DNA from: Promethearchaeota archaeon
GTDB lineage: Archaea; Asgardarchaeota; Lokiarchaeia; Sigyniarchaeales; SOKP01
DNA: 64,000 nucleotides
Direction: 5' to 3'
NCBI GenBank assembly: GCA_019058295.1
Contig: JAHPZI010000026.1
Span: forward strand, 11,067-75,066
Below are positions 6,508 through 14,253 of the stretch, in pieces. The position numbers and the translations under genes are program-made. Under the pieces are notes generated by a model. The model saw nothing but the letters and a program-made list of their open reading frames with translations, was not told where the DNA came from and did not search any database. The stretch's first letter is position 1. The number at the start of each line of letters is the position of its first letter.

Positions 6508-8265
6508 TTACCTAAAAATTTTTACTCCACGTTTCTCTAATTTCTCTAATGAGTCTGGGAATGTAATGATATTATTTTTTTCTAAATTAAGATATTTAAG
6601 TGATGAGAGTGACTCTATCGACTCTGGCAAGGTTGTCAAGGTGTTAGCTCTTAAAAATAAATATTTGAGAGACGAGAGAGAACCAATAGTCTTCGGAAGT
6701 TCCGTTAAATTATTATTGCCTAAATATAAATATTTTAAAGAGTGGAGTGAACCTATTGAGTCTGGGATTTTTTCTAATTTATTATAATAACAGTACAAAT
6801 ATTTTAGTGAATTAAGGGTCCCAATTGAATTAGGAATCTTAATTAAATGATTCTTTCCTAAATCTAATATTTCAAGTGTAAAGAGAGAACCTATTGAATC
6901 GGGTATAGTTTCTAATTTATTAAATCCTAAGATTAAAGTTTTTAATTTATGAAGAGATCCTATGGATGCTGTTAGAGTGGTTAATTTATTACTTGATAAA
7001 TCTATTTCTTTTAAAGAAGATATCTGTCCTATTGATTCTGGGAGCATTCTAATGTTGTTTTTACTCAAATCTAAGATTTCTAATGAAGATAGAGATCCTA
7101 TCGATTTAGGTAACTCCTTTAACAAATTATCATATAAATCAAGTTCTTTGAGTGAAGTAAGCAACCCAATTGATTCAGGAAGCGTTTCCAGACGATTAAG
7201 ACCAATTTTTAATTCTTCAAGTGAAACAATTTTTCCTATTGATTCTGGAAGATTATTTAGATAATTTCTCTGCAAATTTAATCGTCTTAGGGATCTTAAT
7301 CCTCCTATTGTATCTGGAAGTGATTCTATTTTATTATTATGGATGTCTAATCTCATTAATGATTTTAAATTGCCTATAGATTCAGGTAATTCAGTTAAAT
7401 AATTAGATGATAAACTTATATTCTCTATAGATGAAAGTGAACCTATAGTCTTTGGAATAGATTTTAGCATATTTTCCATCAAACCTAAATATTTAAGGTT
7501 GCTAAGAGCTCCTATTGATTCTGGTAAAGTTTCTATATTATTTCCTTTTAAAAACAAAGCCGTTAAAGAGGTTAATGAACCTATCGATTTAAAAATAGAT
7601 TTTAAATTATTATTTCTTATATTGAGTCTTTTTAGTGATTTTAATGAACCAATAGATTCAGGTAAAGTTGATAATTCATTATTTCCCAAATACAATATTT
7701 CTAATGAAAAAAGAGAATTGATGGATGTTTTAAAAATTTCAAGTTTATTTCCACTTAAATCTAGTGTTTTTAAATTTGATAAATTGTTTAAAGATGAGGG
7801 TATATCCTTTAAATAATTCTCGCTTAAATCCAAGAATTCTAAAGAAGAGAGAGATCCTAAAGATTCTGGTAAAGATACTAAATTATTCGATTCTAGGTGT
7901 AATTCCTTTAAGGAGGAAAGATTACCTATTGATTCAGGCAATTCTGATAAGTGATTCTCACTAAAATCTAAAATTTCAAGAGAATCGAATGAAAAAATTT
8001 CATCAGGAACATTCTCTAAATAATTTCCTCTTAAATATAACTCTTTAAGAAAACTCAAAGAATTTATTGATTTTGGAATAGAGGTTAATCCACAAGAAAA
8101 GAGTCCTAATCCAGAGATATGACCTTCATGAACAAAAAAACCAATGTTATAATATTGAAGTTCAGTGAGTTCAGGTAAAGATGTTCCAATTATTTTTTCT
8201 AAAACTCCAATTACTTCTTTTTCTTCCACTGGAATTAAATCTTCAGAAGTTCTTTCTTCTGGCAT
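6508..8265 (-). CDS. Leucine-rich repeat protein
   Basis: More than 20 tandem 23-aa repeats, consensus LPESIGSLSSLxxLxLxxNxLxx. Confidence 0.95.
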   Translation of the reverse strand: MPEERTSEDLIPVEEKEVIGVLEKIIGTSLPELTELQYYNIGFFVHEGHISGLGLFSCGLTSIPKSINSLSFLKELYLRGNYLENVPDEIFSFDSLEILDFSENHLSELPESIGNLSSLKELHLESNNLVSLPESLGSLSSLEFLDLSENYLKDIPSSLNNLSNLKTLDLSGNKLEIFKTSINSLFSLEILYLGNNELSTLPESIGSLKSLKRLNIRNNNLKSIFKSIGSLTSLTALFLKGNNIETLPESIGALSNLKYLGLMENMLKSIPKTIGSLSSIENISLSSNYLTELPESIGNLKSLMRLDIHNNKIESLPDTIGGLRSLRRLNLQRNYLNNLPESIGKIVSLEELKIGLNRLETLPESIGLLTSLKELDLYDNLLKELPKSIGSLSSLEILDLSKNNIRMLPESIGQISSLKEIDLSSNKLTTLTASIGSLHKLKTLILGFNKLETIPDSIGSLFTLEILDLGKNHLIKIPNSIGTLNSLKYLYCYYNKLEKIPDSIGSLHSLKYLYLGNNNLTELPKTIGSLSSLKYLFLRANTLTTLPESIESLSSLKYLNLEKNNIITFPDSLEKLEKRGVKIFR

Positions 8266-9180: not shown

Positions 9181-9258
9181 ATTATTGAAAAAAGTTAGCT
9201 TAACTTTAATGTTTTTTCTTTATAAAGGTTAATAAATTCTGCAAAATAATTATATATT

Positions 9259-9654
9259 ATGTCTAAAGAGCCCAATATTGATGATTTAAAATCTAAAATA
9301 GGATTTGGAATAAAGATATGGTTAGAATTTGGTTCTATTGATAAAAAAAAGAATATTTTGGGTTCTGGATGGGCAAAACTTTTAGAAAATTTAGATAAAA
9401 ACATGAGTGGATCATTGACTCAAGCTGCTGAAGAATGTGGATATTCGTATAAATATGCTTGGAATATTTTAAAGCGCATTGAAAAACGTACTGGAATGTC
9501 AGTTGTTAATACTGGGAAAGGTGGACGAGGTGGTGGGGGTTATGTCGAATTAAATGAATGGGGGAAATATCTTTTAAAAACTTATAATAATTTACTATTT
9601 GAACTTGAAATAATAGAAAAAAGACTTGGAGAAACTTTTAAAATTAATGAATAA
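9259..9654 (+). CDS. ModE-like winged-helix regulator (DNA-binding domain only)
   Basis: GSLTQAAEECGYSYKYAWNILKRIE...GGRGGGGYVELNEWG. Confidence 0.85.
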   Translation: MSKEPNIDDLKSKIGFGIKIWLEFGSIDKKKNILGSGWAKLLENLDKNMSGSLTQAAEECGYSYKYAWNILKRIEKRTGMSVVNTGKGGRGGGGYVELNEWGKYLLKTYNNLLFELEIIEKRLGETFKINE

Positions 9655-9950
9655 ATACTTTTTAATATATAATAGCATTTCCGCACAATAATAAATCTAA
9701 TTTGAAACAATCATGGGGGATAGTCTTAAACAATTTGGTGAAACTTATTGGATTTGTCTTTTAAAAGGATATTTTAACAAAACTGCTAGAACTTTTAAAC
9801 CAATAATTTATTAATTAATAAGATTAAATGAATTTAATTTGGGTTGAAAATGTTATAAGAAAAATTAAGAATAATTTTAATAATTAAGGGATTATAAGAT
9901 CTAATAATAATAATTATAAATATAAAAAAAATTGAGGCTATAACCGTAGA

Positions 9951-11435
9951 ATGGCTTTACCGCTTCCAGGAACACCAGTTATAATTGATATCGGTAGTGC
10001 TTATGTTAAATTAGGTTTTGCTGGTGAACCTACACCTCGTTTTGTTTTTCCTTCTATTGTTGGTACTGAAAAATATAGAGCAGTAATGGTTGATGTTGGC
10101 GGTCAAAGGAATTATTACGTTGGAAATGATGCCATGAAAATGAGGGGCGTCCTTAAAGTAAATTATCCTATACAGAGAGGCGCGATTATGGATTGGGAGG
10201 CGTACTACGAGATTTTAAACTATATTTTTTATACTTTACTTAGAATAGAGAATCTTTCAAATTATCCCATAATATATGCTGAGCATCCTTTTGTACCAAG
10301 AGAAACTAAAGAATTTATAGCAAGAGTTTTGTTCGAAACGCATAAAGTTAATTCTTTAATAATGTTGCAATCCCCATTTTTATCAATGTTTTCCGTTGGG
10401 TTGACAACGGGATTGGTAATTGAGAGTGGGGACGGGCTAACTTGGATTGTTCCAATAGTTAATGGGATTATCCAACAACAAGCAATCCAAAAGTTAAATC
10501 TTGCTGGAATAGATGTAAATCACAATTTAAGAACGTTAATGATGAGAGAAGGAATTAACATTGAATCTTCAGCAGCAGCAGAAATATTAAAAGAAATAAA
10601 AGAAAAAAACTGCTATTTTGTATTAGATCCTCAATCTCCTCCACTTTCGCAAGGGTCCTTCGCGTATCCAATGCCTGATGGCTCGGTTAAACAAATTCCA
10701 AGTAATGTTTTGCATGAAGCTCCTGAGGTTATGTTTCAACCTGGTATGTTAGGTTATAATATAATGAATATCCCCCAGGCGATAATATATTGTTTACAAA
10801 TGATGGATAAAGCCTATTGGAGTGACTTATTATCACACATTGTACTTTCAGGCGGGAACCTCTCTTATAGCGGATTTGAAGAACGATTGAAACAGGAATT
10901 GATGACCCTTTTGCCTCAGTTGGGACCTATTCCTAAAGCTCAAGTTCAGCCAACTCCTATTGGCAGCCAAGAGCCTAAGCTTGAAGCAATTAAAGTAAAA
11001 GAAAAAACAATAGACACATGTCCTGAATGTGGTGAATTAGTAGACTTATCTGGTGGGGGGGAGTCCTGTCCTTCTTGTGGAGCGAGTATGAAATTGCCAC
11101 AATTATCCATAGATATAGGAAAGTCAATTGATAAGAAATCGAGGAAATGTCCCCATTGTAATAAAAAAATTATGGATGCATCATCTGTCTTTTGTCCATT
11201 CTGTGGAAAAGGAATTGCTGATAACTTTTCTAGTGTGAAAGAGTTTACAGATATCTCAGATTCAGATGAGGTTATTAAATTTTTTGTTCCTGATAATCTT
11301 CAATATGCTATTTTTAATGGATCCGCAATACTTGGAAGCCTTCCAAGCTTTCAGAATCTATTCGTTACATACGACGAATTTCAAAGTAATACAAATGCCT
11401 TATACAGAGAGATTTCTGATGTTTTTAAAATATAG
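9951..11435 (+). CDS. Actin-related protein with inserted double zinc ribbon
   Basis: IIDIGSAYVKLGFAGE..PRFVFPSIVG, YPIQRG, ESGDG, EIKEKNCY, PEVMFQP, VLSGG; insertion carrying CPEC/CPSC/CPHC/CPFC. Confidence 0.93.
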   Translation: MALPLPGTPVIIDIGSAYVKLGFAGEPTPRFVFPSIVGTEKYRAVMVDVGGQRNYYVGNDAMKMRGVLKVNYPIQRGAIMDWEAYYEILNYIFYTLLRIENLSNYPIIYAEHPFVPRETKEFIARVLFETHKVNSLIMLQSPFLSMFSVGLTTGLVIESGDGLTWIVPIVNGIIQQQAIQKLNLAGIDVNHNLRTLMMREGINIESSAAAEILKEIKEKNCYFVLDPQSPPLSQGSFAYPMPDGSVKQIPSNVLHEAPEVMFQPGMLGYNIMNIPQAIIYCLQMMDKAYWSDLLSHIVLSGGNLSYSGFEERLKQELMTLLPQLGPIPKAQVQPTPIGSQEPKLEAIKVKEKTIDTCPECGELVDLSGGGESCPSCGASMKLPQLSIDIGKSIDKKSRKCPHCNKKIMDASSVFCPFCGKGIADNFSSVKEFTDISDSDEVIKFFVPDNLQYAIFNGSAILGSLPSFQNLFVTYDEFQSNTNALYREISDVFKI

Positions 11436-11566
11436 CTAAAACTAATTATTTTTCATCAAGAATTATAAAAAAATCTACTTAAATTGTTTTAAATTTCGAT
11501 AATTTTTAATTTCAAGTTGAATTTAGAAATTTAAGTTTAAAAGATTAATCTAAGGTAATTACTTAA

Positions 11567-12721
11567 TTGAAAATATCGAAAATTCGATTATTAACAATTT
11601 TTATGTTATTCCTTGTGATCTCTTTAAGTTTATCACCATTCGCATTAGCAAAAACACGAAAAACGTATTTATCTGATTTTCTCTTAGATAATTTTATCGA
11701 TGATGAAGGTTTTTCAAACTGCAATAGAGAGGAATATCGTGAGGATAGTGATGAGGTATCATACGAAGCAACCGCTTATGCTTTAGAAATTCTTGGAGGT
11801 TATAATTTGTTAGAACAGAAAGATCTATTTGGAAAAGTCGAAAAGAGCTATAATTCTTCAGATCTTCAAGAAGATTTAGAAAAAACCCTTGATTCTATGT
11901 ATGGTTCTGGTTTTGAAGATATTTATGATACATATTATATTTTAAAATCATTAGAAGATATGGATGTTGAAATCGATGGAACTTTAGCTCTTCAAATTAA
12001 ACTATATCTCGATGCCACTGCCCAGAGCAATGGAGGTTTTGCTGGTACAGATACTTCTACATCAGCTACTCTAATTTCAACCTATTTTGCTTTACAAATT
12101 TATGACTTACTAGATCAACCTCTTCCAGATCCAAGAGGTTTTATCTTGTCGTGTGGTAATCCTGATGATGGTGGATATGGAGGTGATCCTACATCTTCCT
12201 CAACTATCGCCAATACATATTACGCTATTTTAATCATGGATTTTTTAGATGATTTTGGGGCTTTAATCTCAGAGAGTGCGACCATTGATTATCTTAATCA
12301 GTTTTATGTTGATGATGAGAATGATGAAGATAATTACGGGGGATATTTACCTGATCTAATAAATGCTAAATATGCATTACTTAGTAGTACTTACTATTGT
12401 CTAAAAGCCATTTCTTTACTCGATAAAGATGAAATAGAAGATGAAGATGCTACCTCAGAATGGCTTTTAGATCGACAGAATTTCCAAGACGGAGGTTTTG
12501 TTGATCAAAGTGAAGGATACGAACAAAAATTTTCTTCAGTAATTAGTACGTATTTTGCCCTAGAAGCGTTAGATTTACTAGGTAAGGAAGATCTATTAGA
12601 AGAAAAAGTTTTCATGTTAGAATGGGAATGGTATGATTGGTTAATATTCTGTATTATATTGATAGCTCTTATCGCATTGGCTATAATAGGTATTTATATT
12701 AGACGAAAAAGAAGATTATAA
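11567..12721 (+). CDS. Secreted, membrane-anchored prenyltransferase/squalene-oxidase-repeat (alpha/alpha barrel) protein
   Basis: Signal peptide, repeated QxxDGG[FY]...STY[YF]AL units, C-terminal TM plus RRKRR tail. Confidence 0.75.
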   Translation: MKISKIRLLTIFMLFLVISLSLSPFALAKTRKTYLSDFLLDNFIDDEGFSNCNREEYREDSDEVSYEATAYALEILGGYNLLEQKDLFGKVEKSYNSSDLQEDLEKTLDSMYGSGFEDIYDTYYILKSLEDMDVEIDGTLALQIKLYLDATAQSNGGFAGTDTSTSATLISTYFALQIYDLLDQPLPDPRGFILSCGNPDDGGYGGDPTSSSTIANTYYAILIMDFLDDFGALISESATIDYLNQFYVDDENDEDNYGGYLPDLINAKYALLSSTYYCLKAISLLDKDEIEDEDATSEWLLDRQNFQDGGFVDQSEGYEQKFSSVISTYFALEALDLLGKEDLLEEKVFMLEWEWYDWLIFCIILIALIALAIIGIYIRRKRRL

Positions 12722-12819
12722 AACATTCTCGTTCCTTTTTATATTTATTCAATACCATTCTTCAAGCTAAAATAGAATTTCTTGAAAATTAATAATATAA
12801 AAGAATAATTCAATGCGAT

Positions 12820-13800: not shown

Positions 13801-14253
13801 ATGGCTGTCCTTGAATGCGGAATTAATATAGGTAATAGAAATTTAATAGAGGTTCGATACTACGCATCATCAGACGTTTTAGATCCAAATCTCCGTGCAG
13901 GATTTCTATCTGCTTTAGAAAGTTTTACCACTGAAGTATTCTCTGACAGCATCAATGTAGTTTCCCTTGCTTCTTTTAAATTAGTTTGTTTCTGTGAGAT
14001 GGTAGCATTACCCGGTGATGACGAAGATAATACGCAGCCCCTGTTAGCATATGCCATAATAGAAAAAGAAACTGAGTCAGAAGTAGTCAAACGTCTTTTA
14101 AATCAGATTATTATGACTTTTACTAATCGCTATTCTGTCTTAGATATTTTCGAAAAGAAACCTAAATATTTCAGAAAATTTGATATAAGGATTAGCGATA
14201 TTCTTGGTGATTTAAAAATGAAAACAGAAGACCGGTTCAAATCTCTCTTCTAA
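13801..14253 (+). CDS. Longin-like domain protein (putative)
   Basis: beta-beta-alpha(DPNLRAGFLSALESFTTEV)-beta-beta-beta-alpha-alpha pattern typical of Asgard longin-like proteins. Confidence 0.55.
   Translation: MAVLECGINIGNRNLIEVRYYASSDVLDPNLRAGFLSALESFTTEVFSDSINVVSLASFKLVCFCEMVALPGDDEDNTQPLLAYAIIEKETESEVVKRLLNQIIMTFTNRYSVLDIFEKKPKYFRKFDIRISDILGDLKMKTEDRFKSLF

What the first reader, a model, noticed from the sequence alone, without database searches (positions are those of the whole stretch)
9951..11435. Actin-related protein with two zinc ribbons inserted in subdomain 3
Seen: about 115 aa (approx. 10925-11270) with a Pro-rich linker and four CxxC pairs lies between LLPQL and IKFFVPDNLQY, the equivalents of actin LAPSTM and IKIIAPPERKY. 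Known: this loop (actin ~322-326) is near a longitudinal filament contact, and Arp3 also carries an insertion in this region. Inference: a non-polymerising Arp acting as nucleator, cap or adaptor through its zinc ribbons.
Basis: partly seen in the sequence, partly recalled or inferred. Interest (0 to 1): 0.72.

Follow-up and report, generated by a model that had tools for sequence, protein, structure and literature searches.

The report
Lokiarchaeal actin relative with zinc-ribbon insert
This gene encodes a real, strongly conserved actin-like protein found in one order of Asgard archaea; it lacks actin's ATP-splitting residues and has two small zinc-binding modules on flexible tethers in the loop actin uses to stack into filaments, and neither the insert nor its function appears in any paper I could search.

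Summary
Window 9951-11435 (+) encodes a 494-aa actin-fold protein (Pfam Actin, 240 bits). Residues 323-441 replace actin residues 323-326 with a ~115-aa net insert holding two Cys4 zinc ribbons.

- **Conservation:** all 8 cysteines are invariant in 60 aligned homologues, and 120 near-full-length homologues each have exactly four CxxC pairs.
- **Phylogeny:** the family forms one clade (SH-aLRT 100).
- **Distribution:** it is confined to one GTDB order (145 of 153 genomes). It is absent from 7 genomes of sister orders and essentially absent from other Asgard classes. NCBI labels suggesting Hod, Thor or Odin members look unreliable.
- **Published link:** the 'Ca. Lokiarchaeum ossiferum' orthologue is UYP44711.1, shown by exact qPCR-primer matches. 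Rodrigues-Oliveira et al. 2022 treed it as an "ARP" and measured its transcript by RT-qPCR, but I found no description of the insert.
- **Catalytic residues:** these are replaced (Q137→S/T, H161→W, H73→R).
- **Variation and synteny:** ribbon 1 is universal and ribbon 2 is lost in some lineages. A wHTH–ARP–surface-protein–FolD gene order persists across the order.

My best reading is a non-dynamic adaptor or terminator subunit on Lokiactin filaments. That mechanism is inferred, not shown. This scan has already reported the same family on other genomes. I class it as a new variant of a known kind, of moderate interest.

The parts
9951..11435 (+). Whole gene: 494-aa actin-related protein with zinc-ribbon insert (stop codon included)
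   Evidence: ORF list and translation. Pfam Actin scores 240 bits. The N-terminus 'MALPLPGTP' is conserved in homologues.
9951..10916 (+). Actin core, N-terminal part (residues 1-322): subdomains 1, 2 and 4 and most of 3, with the phosphate-1, phosphate-2 and adenosine motifs
   Evidence: Pfam and PDB alignments cover residues 6-323. AF2 pLDDT is mostly 80-95 except residues 37-68. Foldseek TM is 0.80-0.87 to actin chains, normalised by target.
10371..10373 (+). S141, aligned with actin's catalytic Gln137 (Thr in most family members, Ser in divergent ones; Gln invariant in Lokiactins)
   Evidence: Joint alignment of 60 family members, 9 divergent members and 41 Lokiactins.
10443..10445 (+). 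W165, aligned with actin's catalytic His161 (Trp invariant in the window's GTDB family; F, T, S, Y or H in divergent members)
10176..10178 (+). R76, aligned with actin His73 in the sensor loop (Arg in every family member examined)
10917..11009 (+). Insert, linker 1 (residues 323-353). It starts with the conserved 'PQLGxIP' motif, then becomes basic (mean net charge +3.6), Pro-containing and poorly conserved
   Evidence: L324 and G325 are invariant; I327 and P328 are nearly invariant. Charge and length are. pLDDT is below 50 for residues 333-350.
11010..11087 (+). Zinc ribbon 1 (residues 354-379; C357, C360, C373, C376). Present in every family member examined
   Evidence: Length is fixed at 26 aa in 60 sequences. 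pLDDT is about 73-77 with beta hairpins.
11088..11138 (+). Variable linker between the ribbons (residues 380-396)
   Evidence: Conservation 0.47; length 13-25 aa; pLDDT below 50 for residues 385-395.
11139..11213 (+). Zinc ribbon 2 (residues 397-421; C400, C403, C415, C418). Invariant in the window's GTDB family; absent in the L. ossiferum orthologue and in the earliest-branching lineage
   Evidence: Best Pfam stretch is DUF7575/Zn_ribbon_3 at 398-421.
11214..11273 (+). Insert, acidic linker 2 (residues 422-441). At 20 aa it is the shortest in the family, against a mean of 31
   Evidence: mean net charge -4.3. pLDDT is below 50 for residues 425-437.
11274..11432 (+). Actin core, C-terminal part (residues 442-494; equals actin 327-375)
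   Evidence: Second HMMER stretch to actin; pLDDT 88-95.
9259..9654 (+). Conserved upstream neighbour: 131-aa ModE-type winged-helix protein
   Evidence: Pfam HTH_1 and NCBIfam ModE_repress hits, both below cut-off. Present next to the ARP in 69 of 80 loci and in orthologous loci at 34-41% ARP identity.
11567..12721 (+). Conserved downstream neighbour: 384-aa signal-peptide protein with a prenyltransferase-like alpha/alpha toroid and a C-terminal TM helix plus basic tail
   Evidence: Pfam Prenyltrans 64.5 bits. Adjacent on the same strand in 79 of 80 loci, and also in loci with 34-47% ARP identity, including L. ossiferum. Median gap to the ARP stop is 150 nt.

Best explanation
**What is shown**
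- The gene encodes a genuine actin-related protein, specific to the Lokiarchaeales-type order.
- It has a complete actin fold.
- The catalytic residues for ATP hydrolysis are replaced, while the phosphate and adenine loops stay highly conserved in the window's GTDB family.
- A ~115-aa insert at the subdomain-3 loop (actin 323-326) carries one universally kept Cys4 zinc ribbon and a second that is usually kept. The ribbons sit between a basic and an acidic low-complexity linker.

**What is inferred**
- The protein is a non-dynamic structural or adaptor subunit of the Lokiactin cytoskeleton.
- It docks on Lokiactin through actin-like longitudinal surfaces: the D-loop 'VMVDV', the 'MRGVL' strand and the 'PDG' loop.
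- Its own barbed-face subdomain-3 contact is altered (R290→W) and carries the tethered ribbons. It would therefore most likely sit at or terminate a filament barbed end rather than be an ordinary internal subunit.
- The ribbons would then hold a still unknown partner.
For: **Identity and fold**
- Pfam, PDB and Foldseek hits and an AF2 model with a confident core.

**The insert is selected, not junk**
- All 8 Cys are invariant, and ribbon lengths are fixed at 26 and 25 aa while the linkers vary.
- The family is one clade with SH-aLRT 100.
- It is near-universal in one order (145 of 153 genomes), absent from 7 genomes of sister orders and essentially absent from other Asgard classes (5 weak, partial hits, E about 1e-6, among 240 genomes of other orders and classes).

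**Hydrolysis residues**
- Q137→S/T, H161→W (F, T, S or Y elsewhere in the family) and H73→R. All three are invariant in 41 Lokiactins.
- P1, P2 and adenine motifs are 0.93-0.96 conserved in the window's family, against 0.78 for the remaining core positions.

**Position of the insert**
- Actin 322-325 contacts 243-245 of the next subunit in F-actin (PMC7247010).

**Pointed-face elements**
- 'MRGVL' is 1.00 conserved in the family and 0.98 in divergent members, and 'PDG' is invariant.
- The family consensus matches Lokiactin at 50% of pointed-face positions against 34% of barbed-face positions.
- Barbed-face segment 283-294 is the least conserved segment examined (0.59) and carries R290→W.

**A partner filament exists**
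- The genome encodes a Lokiactin.
- The L. ossiferum orthologue UYP44711.1 was one of the actin homologues assayed by RT-qPCR; the paper reports Lokiactin expression as several-fold higher (primer match; PMC9834061).
Against: - There is no direct evidence of binding to Lokiactin or of zinc binding.
- The pointed-versus-barbed conservation contrast is not significant (Mann-Whitney p = 0.08) and vanishes among the nine divergent members.
- The contact residue sets were taken from memory of F-actin structures.
- The linkers are long and predicted to be disordered. The ribbons could swing clear and let subunits add beneath, so capping is not required.
- The AF2 model is poor for subdomain 2 (residues 37-68, pLDDT 32-45), the very part proposed to dock.
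- In divergent members the phosphate-2 Asp157 is C, T, S or E, so nucleotide binding itself may not be general.
- The barbed-end cleft residues stay fairly conserved (0.88-0.89), which would fit something binding there too.
Confidence: 0.4

Rival explanations
1. It polymerises by itself, or co-polymerises along the length of Lokiactin filaments, as a static filament in the manner of Arp1. The zinc ribbons would decorate the filament surface as repeated docking sites.
For: - Apart from the one insert, every polymerisation element keeps actin-like length: D-loop, PDG loop, hydrophobic plug, W-loop and C-terminus.
- Arp1 scores as well as actin against it in the PDB (223 bits).
- The flexible linkers could let the insert exit the interface.
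Against: - The insert anchors exactly at the 322-325 contact.
- Segment 283-294 has diverged, including R290→W.
- The paper reports Lokiactin expression as several-fold higher than that of the other actin homologues, the orthologue included (PMC9834061); its cryo-ET filament was attributed to Lokiactin.
Confidence: 0.2
2. It has a non-cytoskeletal role, as nuclear Arp4 and Arp8 do. The actin fold would serve as a scaffold or nucleotide sensor, and the zinc ribbons with their basic linker would bind nucleic acid or another non-filament protein complex.
For: - Zinc ribbons commonly bind DNA, RNA or proteins.
- Linker 1 and ribbon 2 are basic.
- A ModE-type winged-helix gene is a conserved upstream neighbour.
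- The ATPase residues are degenerate, as in several nuclear Arps (recalled, not tested).
Against: - Ribbon 1 and linker 2 are acidic.
- Actin-type surface elements (D-loop, MRGVL, PDG) are among the best conserved.
- No HSA-type partner or chromatin remodeller is known in these archaea (recalled).
- The intergenic region shows no convincing repeats.
Confidence: 0.15
3. It is a nucleator. It would mimic the first subunit of a filament, like Arp2 or Arp3. The ribbons would anchor it to a site, such as the membrane or another filament, and Lokiactin would grow from its barbed face.
For: - The barbed-end cleft residues (139-148 and 346-355) are 0.88-0.89 conserved.
- As I recall, Arp3 carries an insert in the same alphaK/beta15 loop that holds a non-actin subunit without blocking growth. 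One search supports only that two Arp3 inserts have complex-specific roles.
Against: - ARPC2 and ARPC4 were not found in this genome with the Pfam models, though it is 79% complete and the controls rang nowhere.
- The subdomain-3 half of the barbed face is the least conserved part.
- A single Arp cannot by itself template the two-stranded short-pitch dimer (established knowledge of Arp2/3).
Confidence: 0.12
4. It is a ParM-like segregation system. The actin-like protein and the adjacent small DNA-binding protein would move DNA.
For: The gene pair of a small wHTH protein and an actin-fold protein is conserved across the order.
Against: - The 296-nt intergenic region has no iteron or centromere-like repeat array, only AT-rich low-complexity matches.
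- The catalytic residues needed for ParM-type dynamic instability are missing.
- The sequence is far closer to eukaryote-type actin than to ParM or MamK.
Confidence: 0.04

Closest known systems
Lokiactin (conserved Asgard actin; best solved relative 'HC1 actin', PDB 9wc4; this genome's own copy at G000:C2:177094-178152)
   Same: - Same fold and motif order.
- It is the best PDB sequence hit (247 bits).
- It falls on the same side of my tree.
- The D-loop, PDG loop, plug and C-terminal helix are of similar length.
   Different: - Only about 36-41% identical.
- Q137, H161 and H73 are invariant in Lokiactins but replaced here.
- It carries a ~115-aa zinc-ribbon insert at actin 323-326.
- It has a 5-residue deletion in the subdomain-4 tip.
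- It is restricted to one order, whereas Lokiactin is found in all Asgard classes (PMC9834061).
'ARP' UYP44711.1 of 'Ca. Lokiarchaeum ossiferum' (Rodrigues-Oliveira et al. 2022, Nature; PMC9834061)
   Same: - It is the orthologue. Both published qPCR primers match exactly inside the orthologous gene of the 6,035,313-bp closed genome.
- It belongs to the same clade.
- It has the same wHTH–ARP–surface protein–FolD neighbourhood.
   Different: - 41% identical.
- It has only the first zinc ribbon. The second is replaced by a Lys/Glu-rich segment.
- It keeps His at the H161 position but has Cys at Asp157.
- The paper gives only its tree position and RT-qPCR signal, and does not mention the insert.
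Eukaryotic Arp1 (centractin) and conventional actin
   Same: HMMER scores are about 223-226 bits over residues 7-323. JGI auto-annotation calls some members 'centractin'.
   Different: - Orthology to any eukaryotic Arp class is not shown.
- Neither has a zinc-ribbon insert.
- Both keep Q137 and H161 (recalled for Arp1).
Arp3 alphaK/beta15 insert (Liu et al. 2013, J Biol Chem 288:487; cited in PMC4947185)
   Same: As I recall it, the insert sits in the same helix-K/strand-15 loop of subdomain 3 and serves to hold a non-actin subunit. That would be a precedent for this loop acting as a docking platform.
   Different: It is short, with no zinc ribbon, and works within the seven-subunit Arp2/3 complex. 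I could not read the paper or obtain an Arp3 sequence, so the positional equivalence is untested.
Pfam DZR (PF12773), Zn_ribbon_3 and DUF7575 stand-alone double zinc ribbons
   Same: The CPxCG...FCPxCG pattern is shared. Scores lie just around the cut-offs, and the nearest Atlas clusters are DZR proteins (scores about 0.8, leads only).
   Different: Those are free-standing or N-terminal modules of bacterial and phage proteins with no known function. Here the module is spliced into an actin fold.

Membership tests
Actin superfamily, actin/Arp branch (Pfam PF00022) | Profile score above the curated cut-off | tested here: met
   240.5 bits against a cut-off of 27.
Actin superfamily, actin/Arp branch (Pfam PF00022) | Four-subdomain actin fold | tested here: met
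   AF2 model with a confident core. Foldseek TM is 0.80-0.87 (target-normalised) to many actin chains, E about 1e-30.
Actin superfamily, actin/Arp branch (Pfam PF00022) | Phosphate-1, phosphate-2 and adenosine motifs | tested here: met
   DIGSAYVK, ESGDGLTW and GGNLSYSG are present and 0.93-0.96 conserved in the window's GTDB family. They are degenerate in some divergent members.
Lokiactin / conventional actin | Catalytic Gln137 and His161 (and His73) retained | tested here: not met
   S141, W165 and R76 here; Q, H and H are invariant in 41 Lokiactins.
Lokiactin / conventional actin | Uninterrupted core of about 375-381 aa, with about 60% identity between Lokiactin and eukaryotic actin | tested here: not met
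   494 aa with a ~115-aa insert. It is 36-41% identical to actins and Lokiactins. Lokiactin is 57-64% identical to eukaryotic actins.
Lokiactin / conventional actin | Groups inside the Lokiactin clade on a tree | tested here: not met
   It forms a separate clade (SH-aLRT 100, stem 0.56) outside the Lokiactin clade (97).
Actin-related protein (Arp), operational sense | Actin-fold paralogue that coexists with a conventional-type actin, is clearly divergent from it and carries lineage-specific inserts | tested here: met
   The genome has a Lokiactin as well as this gene. Divergence and insert are as described above.
A specific eukaryotic Arp class (Arp1-Arp10) | Orthology on a tree that includes named Arp1-10 | tested here: inconclusive
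   My tree held no named Arps. The two sampled representatives I checked were divergent actins. Published trees place UYP44711.1 among 'Asgard archaeal and eukaryotic ARPs' without a class.
Arp2/3-type nucleator | Partner subunits ARPC2 and ARPC4 encoded in the genome | tested here: inconclusive
   PF04045 and PF05856 were not found in the 79%-complete genome. The control panel rang nowhere, so the search is weak.
Zinc ribbon (Cys4 knuckle pair) | Two CxxC knuckles 11-12 residues apart on beta hairpins, with invariant cysteines | tested here: met
   C-x2-C-x12-C-x2-C and C-x2-C-x11-C-x2-C. The cysteines are invariant in 60 of 60 sequences, and the model shows beta hairpins.
Zinc ribbon (Cys4 knuckle pair) | Bound zinc ion | not testable with these tools
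   Needs metal analysis of purified protein.

The most novel reading that the evidence does not exclude
The protein is a built-in filament-end anchor. It would be an ATPase-dead actin mimic that caps Lokiactin barbed ends and, through its tethered zinc ribbons, couples them to a cell-envelope or protrusion-tip component. The co-inherited sorted surface protein may be part of the same module. That would be the first archaeal Arp with a defined end-binding role, and an origin of 'actin mimics as regulators' independent of the eukaryotic Arps.
Probability: 0.2. Interest if true: 0.8.

Novelty: new variant of a known kind. Interest (0 to 1): 0.55.

Why it matters
**What is known so far.** Asgard archaea build a Lokiactin cytoskeleton that shapes their protrusions. 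Profilins and gelsolins have been tested biochemically. The 'ARPs' seen in their genomes have no assigned function.

**Why this family is a good entry point**
- It is near-universal in the order that contains 'Ca. L. ossiferum', a strain grown in enrichment culture.
- Its orthologue in that strain was assayed by RT-qPCR alongside Lokiactin.
- It has an obvious handle for pull-downs and deletion tests: a zinc-ribbon module spliced into a filament-contact loop.
- Together these make the question 'what do archaeal Arps do?' directly testable.

**What tempers the interest**
- The family is confined to one order, not the Heimdall/Hod lineage thought to be nearest to eukaryotes. It is probably a lineage-specific innovation rather than an ancestor of eukaryotic Arps.
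- The sequences are already public.
- This scan has reported the family repeatedly.

Tried and rejected
- **Complex prediction.** I submitted the ARP alignment with a Lokiactin alignment. The tool did not fold the pair because Lokiactin resembles a eukaryotic protein. There was no verdict and the job was counted.
- **Expression in public runs.** No RNA holder is listed for window 9200-12800.
- **Protein-atlas search with the ribbon region.** It returned only generic DZR clusters at scores of about 0.8, which is chance level.
- **NCBIfam.** There is no family for the ARP beyond weak MamK or crenactin-type hits, and none for the surface-protein neighbour or the 150-aa neighbour. The 150-aa protein has no PDB sequence relative.
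- **Literature.** Six full-text searches combining Asgard or Lokiactin with ARP, zinc ribbon or insertion found no description of the insert. Da Cunha et al. 2022 split 'asgardactins' into five clades. I could not tell which one this family is.
- **Arp3 insert claim.** Liu et al. 2013 is not held. Representatives P0206 and P0237, which I hoped were Arps, are divergent conventional-type actins.
- **Top non-family hits P0129, P0130 and P0135.** I had considered them ARPs with other inserts at the same site. They are tandem double-actin proteins, so I rejected that idea.
- **Centromere-like repeats upstream.** None are convincing.
- **Pointed-versus-barbed face conservation test.** It gave a trend only (p = 0.08), with none in divergent members.
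- **NCBI organism labels.** Labels of Hod-, Thor-, Odin- or Hermodarchaeota on close homologues would imply a pan-Asgard family. I rejected that reading because, in GTDB terms, confident matches fall in one order.
- **Direct docking of the ribbons on the neighbour's cytoplasmic tail.** I judged this unlikely. The tail is a 5-6-residue basic stub that looks like part of a sorting signal.
Full report
**1. The observation**

Window 9951-11435 (+) is a single 494-codon ORF.
- Pfam Actin scores 240.5 bits over residues 9-323.
- HMMER against the PDB finds a second actin stretch at residues 432-481, matching actin 344-393.
- 'LLPQL' (residues 320-324) aligns with actin 'LAPST', and 'IKFFVPDNLQY' (442-452) with 'IKIIAPPERKY'.
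- The insert holds four CxxC pairs: C357/360, C373/376, C400/403 and C415/418. They score around the cut-offs of Pfam DZR, DUF7575 and Zn_ribbon_3.
- This is not chance. The ribbon region (C357-C418, 62 residues) holds eight cysteines, against two in the rest of the protein. All eight are invariant in a 60-sequence alignment. All 120 near-full-length homologues have exactly four CxxC pairs.

**2. Anatomy**

Conservation by region across 117 homologues:

| Region | Conservation |
|---|---|
| Actin core (N-terminal / C-terminal parts) | 0.81 / 0.77 |
| Ribbon 1 | 0.73 |
| Ribbon 2 | 0.67 |
| Three linkers | 0.47-0.58 |

- Ribbon lengths are fixed at 26 and 25 aa, while linker lengths vary.
- Mean net charges are +3.6 for linker 1, -2.5 for ribbon 1, +1.8 for ribbon 2 and -4.3 for linker 2.
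- The window's protein has the shortest linker 2 in the family, 20 aa against a mean of 31.
- The insert opens with a conserved 'PQLGxIP' motif, and AF2 models this stretch with confidence.
- The AF2 model built on the 60-sequence alignment has mean pLDDT 74.9. The core scores 80-95, the ribbons about 73-77 and the linkers below 50. A large part of subdomain 2 (residues 37-68) scores 32-45.
- Foldseek matches actin chains at target-normalised TM 0.80-0.87.
- The picture is two small metal-binding modules on flexible tethers growing out of an otherwise complete actin fold.

**3. Active site**

I aligned 60 family members, nine divergent members and 41 Lokiactins together.

| Actin residue | Lokiactins | This family |
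|---|---|---|
| Gln137 | invariant Q | Ser or Thr (S141 here) |
| His161 | invariant H | invariant W165 in the window's GTDB family; F, T, S, Y or H elsewhere |
| His73 | invariant H | Arg throughout (R76) |

- The window's Q140, one residue upstream of S141, is not conserved; most members have Pro there.
- The phosphate-1, phosphate-2 and adenine motifs are 0.93-0.96 conserved in the window's family, and E214 and K213 are kept. Nucleotide binding without efficient hydrolysis is therefore the likeliest state there.
- In divergent members Asp157 becomes C, T, S or E, so even nucleotide binding may not be general.

**4. Family, range and published identity**

- A word-indexed search found at least 339 relatives. 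The top 120 are 59-100% identical over the full length, and all that span the insert carry Actin plus zinc-ribbon domains; the one exception is a 340-aa fragment.
- An exhaustive search of 50%-identity representatives shows ribbon-bearing members down to 41% identity. After those come ordinary actins at about 36%.
- A scan of species-representative genomes found 126 genomes with the gene. The closest is the Lokiarchaeal MAG AMARA_1S at 92%.
- I searched 400 Asgard genomes with residues 300-460:

| Group | Genomes with a match |
|---|---|
| Window's GTDB family | 127 of 134 |
| Three other families of the same order | 18 of 19 |
| Other orders of the class | 0 of 7 |
| Remaining 233 genomes (other classes) | 5, all weak and partial |

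- The NCBI labels Hod-, Thor-, Odin- and Hermodarchaeota on close homologues therefore look like mis-assignments, and the family is order-specific.
- On a maximum-likelihood tree all 16 sampled members form one clade (SH-aLRT 100, stem 0.56). The clade sits on the Lokiactin side of the actin tree, but the connecting branch is very short and not reliably supported.
- Genome G138 is a closed genome of 6,035,313 bp. Its orthologue contains exact matches to both RT-qPCR primers published for 'Ca. L. ossiferum' UYP44711.1. The family is therefore one of the three 'ARPs' in Fig. 5d,e of Rodrigues-Oliveira et al. 2022. It was assayed there by RT-qPCR; the paper reports Lokiactin expression as several-fold higher.
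- That paper does not mention zinc or the insert. Six full-text searches found no paper that does.
- The L. ossiferum protein and the earliest-branching lineage (P0127, L093) have only ribbon 1. Ribbon 1 is thus the constant element and ribbon 2 is variable.

**5. Neighbourhood**

- The gene order is: metallo-beta-lactamase (-), ModE-type wHTH (131 aa), ARP, a prenyltransferase-like surface protein (384 aa), FolD, a 150-aa protein, a DRG-type GTPase.
- This order is kept in 66-79 of 80 loci.
- The core wHTH–ARP–surface protein–FolD block persists at 34-47% ARP identity, including in L. ossiferum.
- The ARP and the surface-protein gene are always on the same strand, with a median gap of 150 nt.
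- FolD and the GTPase are housekeeping genes. I therefore treat the synteny as a weak to moderate hint of coupling, not as proof.
- The surface protein ends in a conserved motif, a TM helix and a basic stub, 'VEFN[YF]…W(R/K)4[ILV]-COOH'. This looks like a sortase- or archaeosortase-type sorting signal, which is my inference from the known tripartite pattern. Direct binding of the ribbons to that tail is therefore unlikely.

**6. Mechanism**

- Published F-actin structures place residues 322-325 against residues 243-245 of the next subunit along the strand (PMC7247010). The insert is anchored in that contact.
- The adjacent segment 283-294 is the least conserved part of the core (0.59) and carries R290→W.
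- The pointed-face elements behave differently. The D-loop 'VMVDV', 'MRGVL' and 'PDG' are among the best conserved, and the family consensus matches Lokiactin at 50% of those positions, against 34% on the barbed face.
- Lokiactin shows the reverse pattern, with its barbed face more conserved than its pointed face (p = 0.006).
- The contrast within the ARP family is not significant (p = 0.08) and is absent in divergent members.
- My best reading, at about 0.4, is a non-dynamic adaptor that docks by its pointed face on Lokiactin, probably at a barbed end. It would present the zinc ribbons to an unknown partner.
- The rivals are a static homo- or co-polymer (0.2), a non-cytoskeletal scaffold (0.15), a nucleator (0.12) and a ParM-like system (0.04).
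- The one complex prediction I could send was not folded by the tool, so nothing computed here bears on binding.

**7. Comparison and novelty**

- It is a member of the actin/Arp family: profile, fold and motifs are all met.
- It is not a Lokiactin or a conventional actin: catalytic residues, length, identity and tree position are all not met.
- Orthology to a eukaryotic Arp class is unresolved.
- ARPC2 and ARPC4 were not found in the 79%-complete genome, but that search is weak.
- The architecture, a double zinc ribbon spliced into the helix-K/strand-15 loop, is undescribed in the literature I could search. The sequences are public, one orthologue has been treed and assayed by RT-qPCR, and this scan has reported the same family on many other genomes.
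- I class it as a new variant of a known kind, with interest 0.55.

**8. Aside**

- The genome's own Lokiactin gene (locus L001) carries two hairpin-containing interruptions of 31 and 30 nt within its last 25 codons.
- The interrupted form stands unchanged in the contigs of two runs of one study. Related strains in those samples carry the uninterrupted sequence.
- I did not resolve what these interruptions are.

Noticed in passing
L001 1400-1540 (minus strand); G000 contig C2, about 177.1 kb; outside the window: The genome's only Lokiactin gene is interrupted twice within its last 25 codons, compared with 98-99% identical full-length Lokiactins. The reading is TFHR | 31 nt (in-frame TGA; perfect 8-bp hairpin TTCAAGCG-AGAA-CGCTTGAA) | MWVTRRE | 30 nt (7-bp hairpin) | YKEMGPQVIHRCF*. 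The region folds strongly (dG -46.8, z -5.1). The interrupted form is identical in the contigs of two runs of one study, while related strains there have the uninterrupted sequence. It is not a canonical bulge-helix-bulge intron. Mini-introns, tiny palindromic insertions or a pseudogene all remain possible.
   Followed up: partly
window 11567-12721 (+), C-terminus; orthologues in L006-L085 and L090-L092: The prenyltransferase-like surface protein next to the ARP ends in a conserved tripartite signal: 'MVEFN[YF]', a TM helix, then 'W(R/K)4[ILV]' as the very C-terminus ('KYKNRI' in the L. ossiferum group). This resembles sortase, exosortase or archaeosortase sorting signals, but no NCBIfam or Pfam CTERM model matches it.
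   Followed up: partly
window 13801-14253 (+): A 150-aa protein is conserved between FolD and a DRG-type GTPase in 74 of 80 related loci. It has no Pfam, NCBIfam or PDB sequence match.
   Followed up: partly
window 6508-8265 (-): A 585-aa protein made almost entirely of leucine-rich repeats (LRR_14 at 308 bits). It matched in only 1 of the 80 related loci (which reach ~6 kb each side), so it appears to be a local addition.
   Followed up: no
They carry ARP orthologues 59-73% identical to this Lokiarchaeal protein within the same gene order. In the GTDB-based genome set, confident matches occur in only one order, so these NCBI labels are probably wrong.
   Followed up: partly
G000:C19:81352-81642 (-); outside the window: A 128-aa ORF gives a weak profilin-like match (18.5 bits, below the cut-off). 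It is likely the divergent Loki-type profilin.
   Followed up: no
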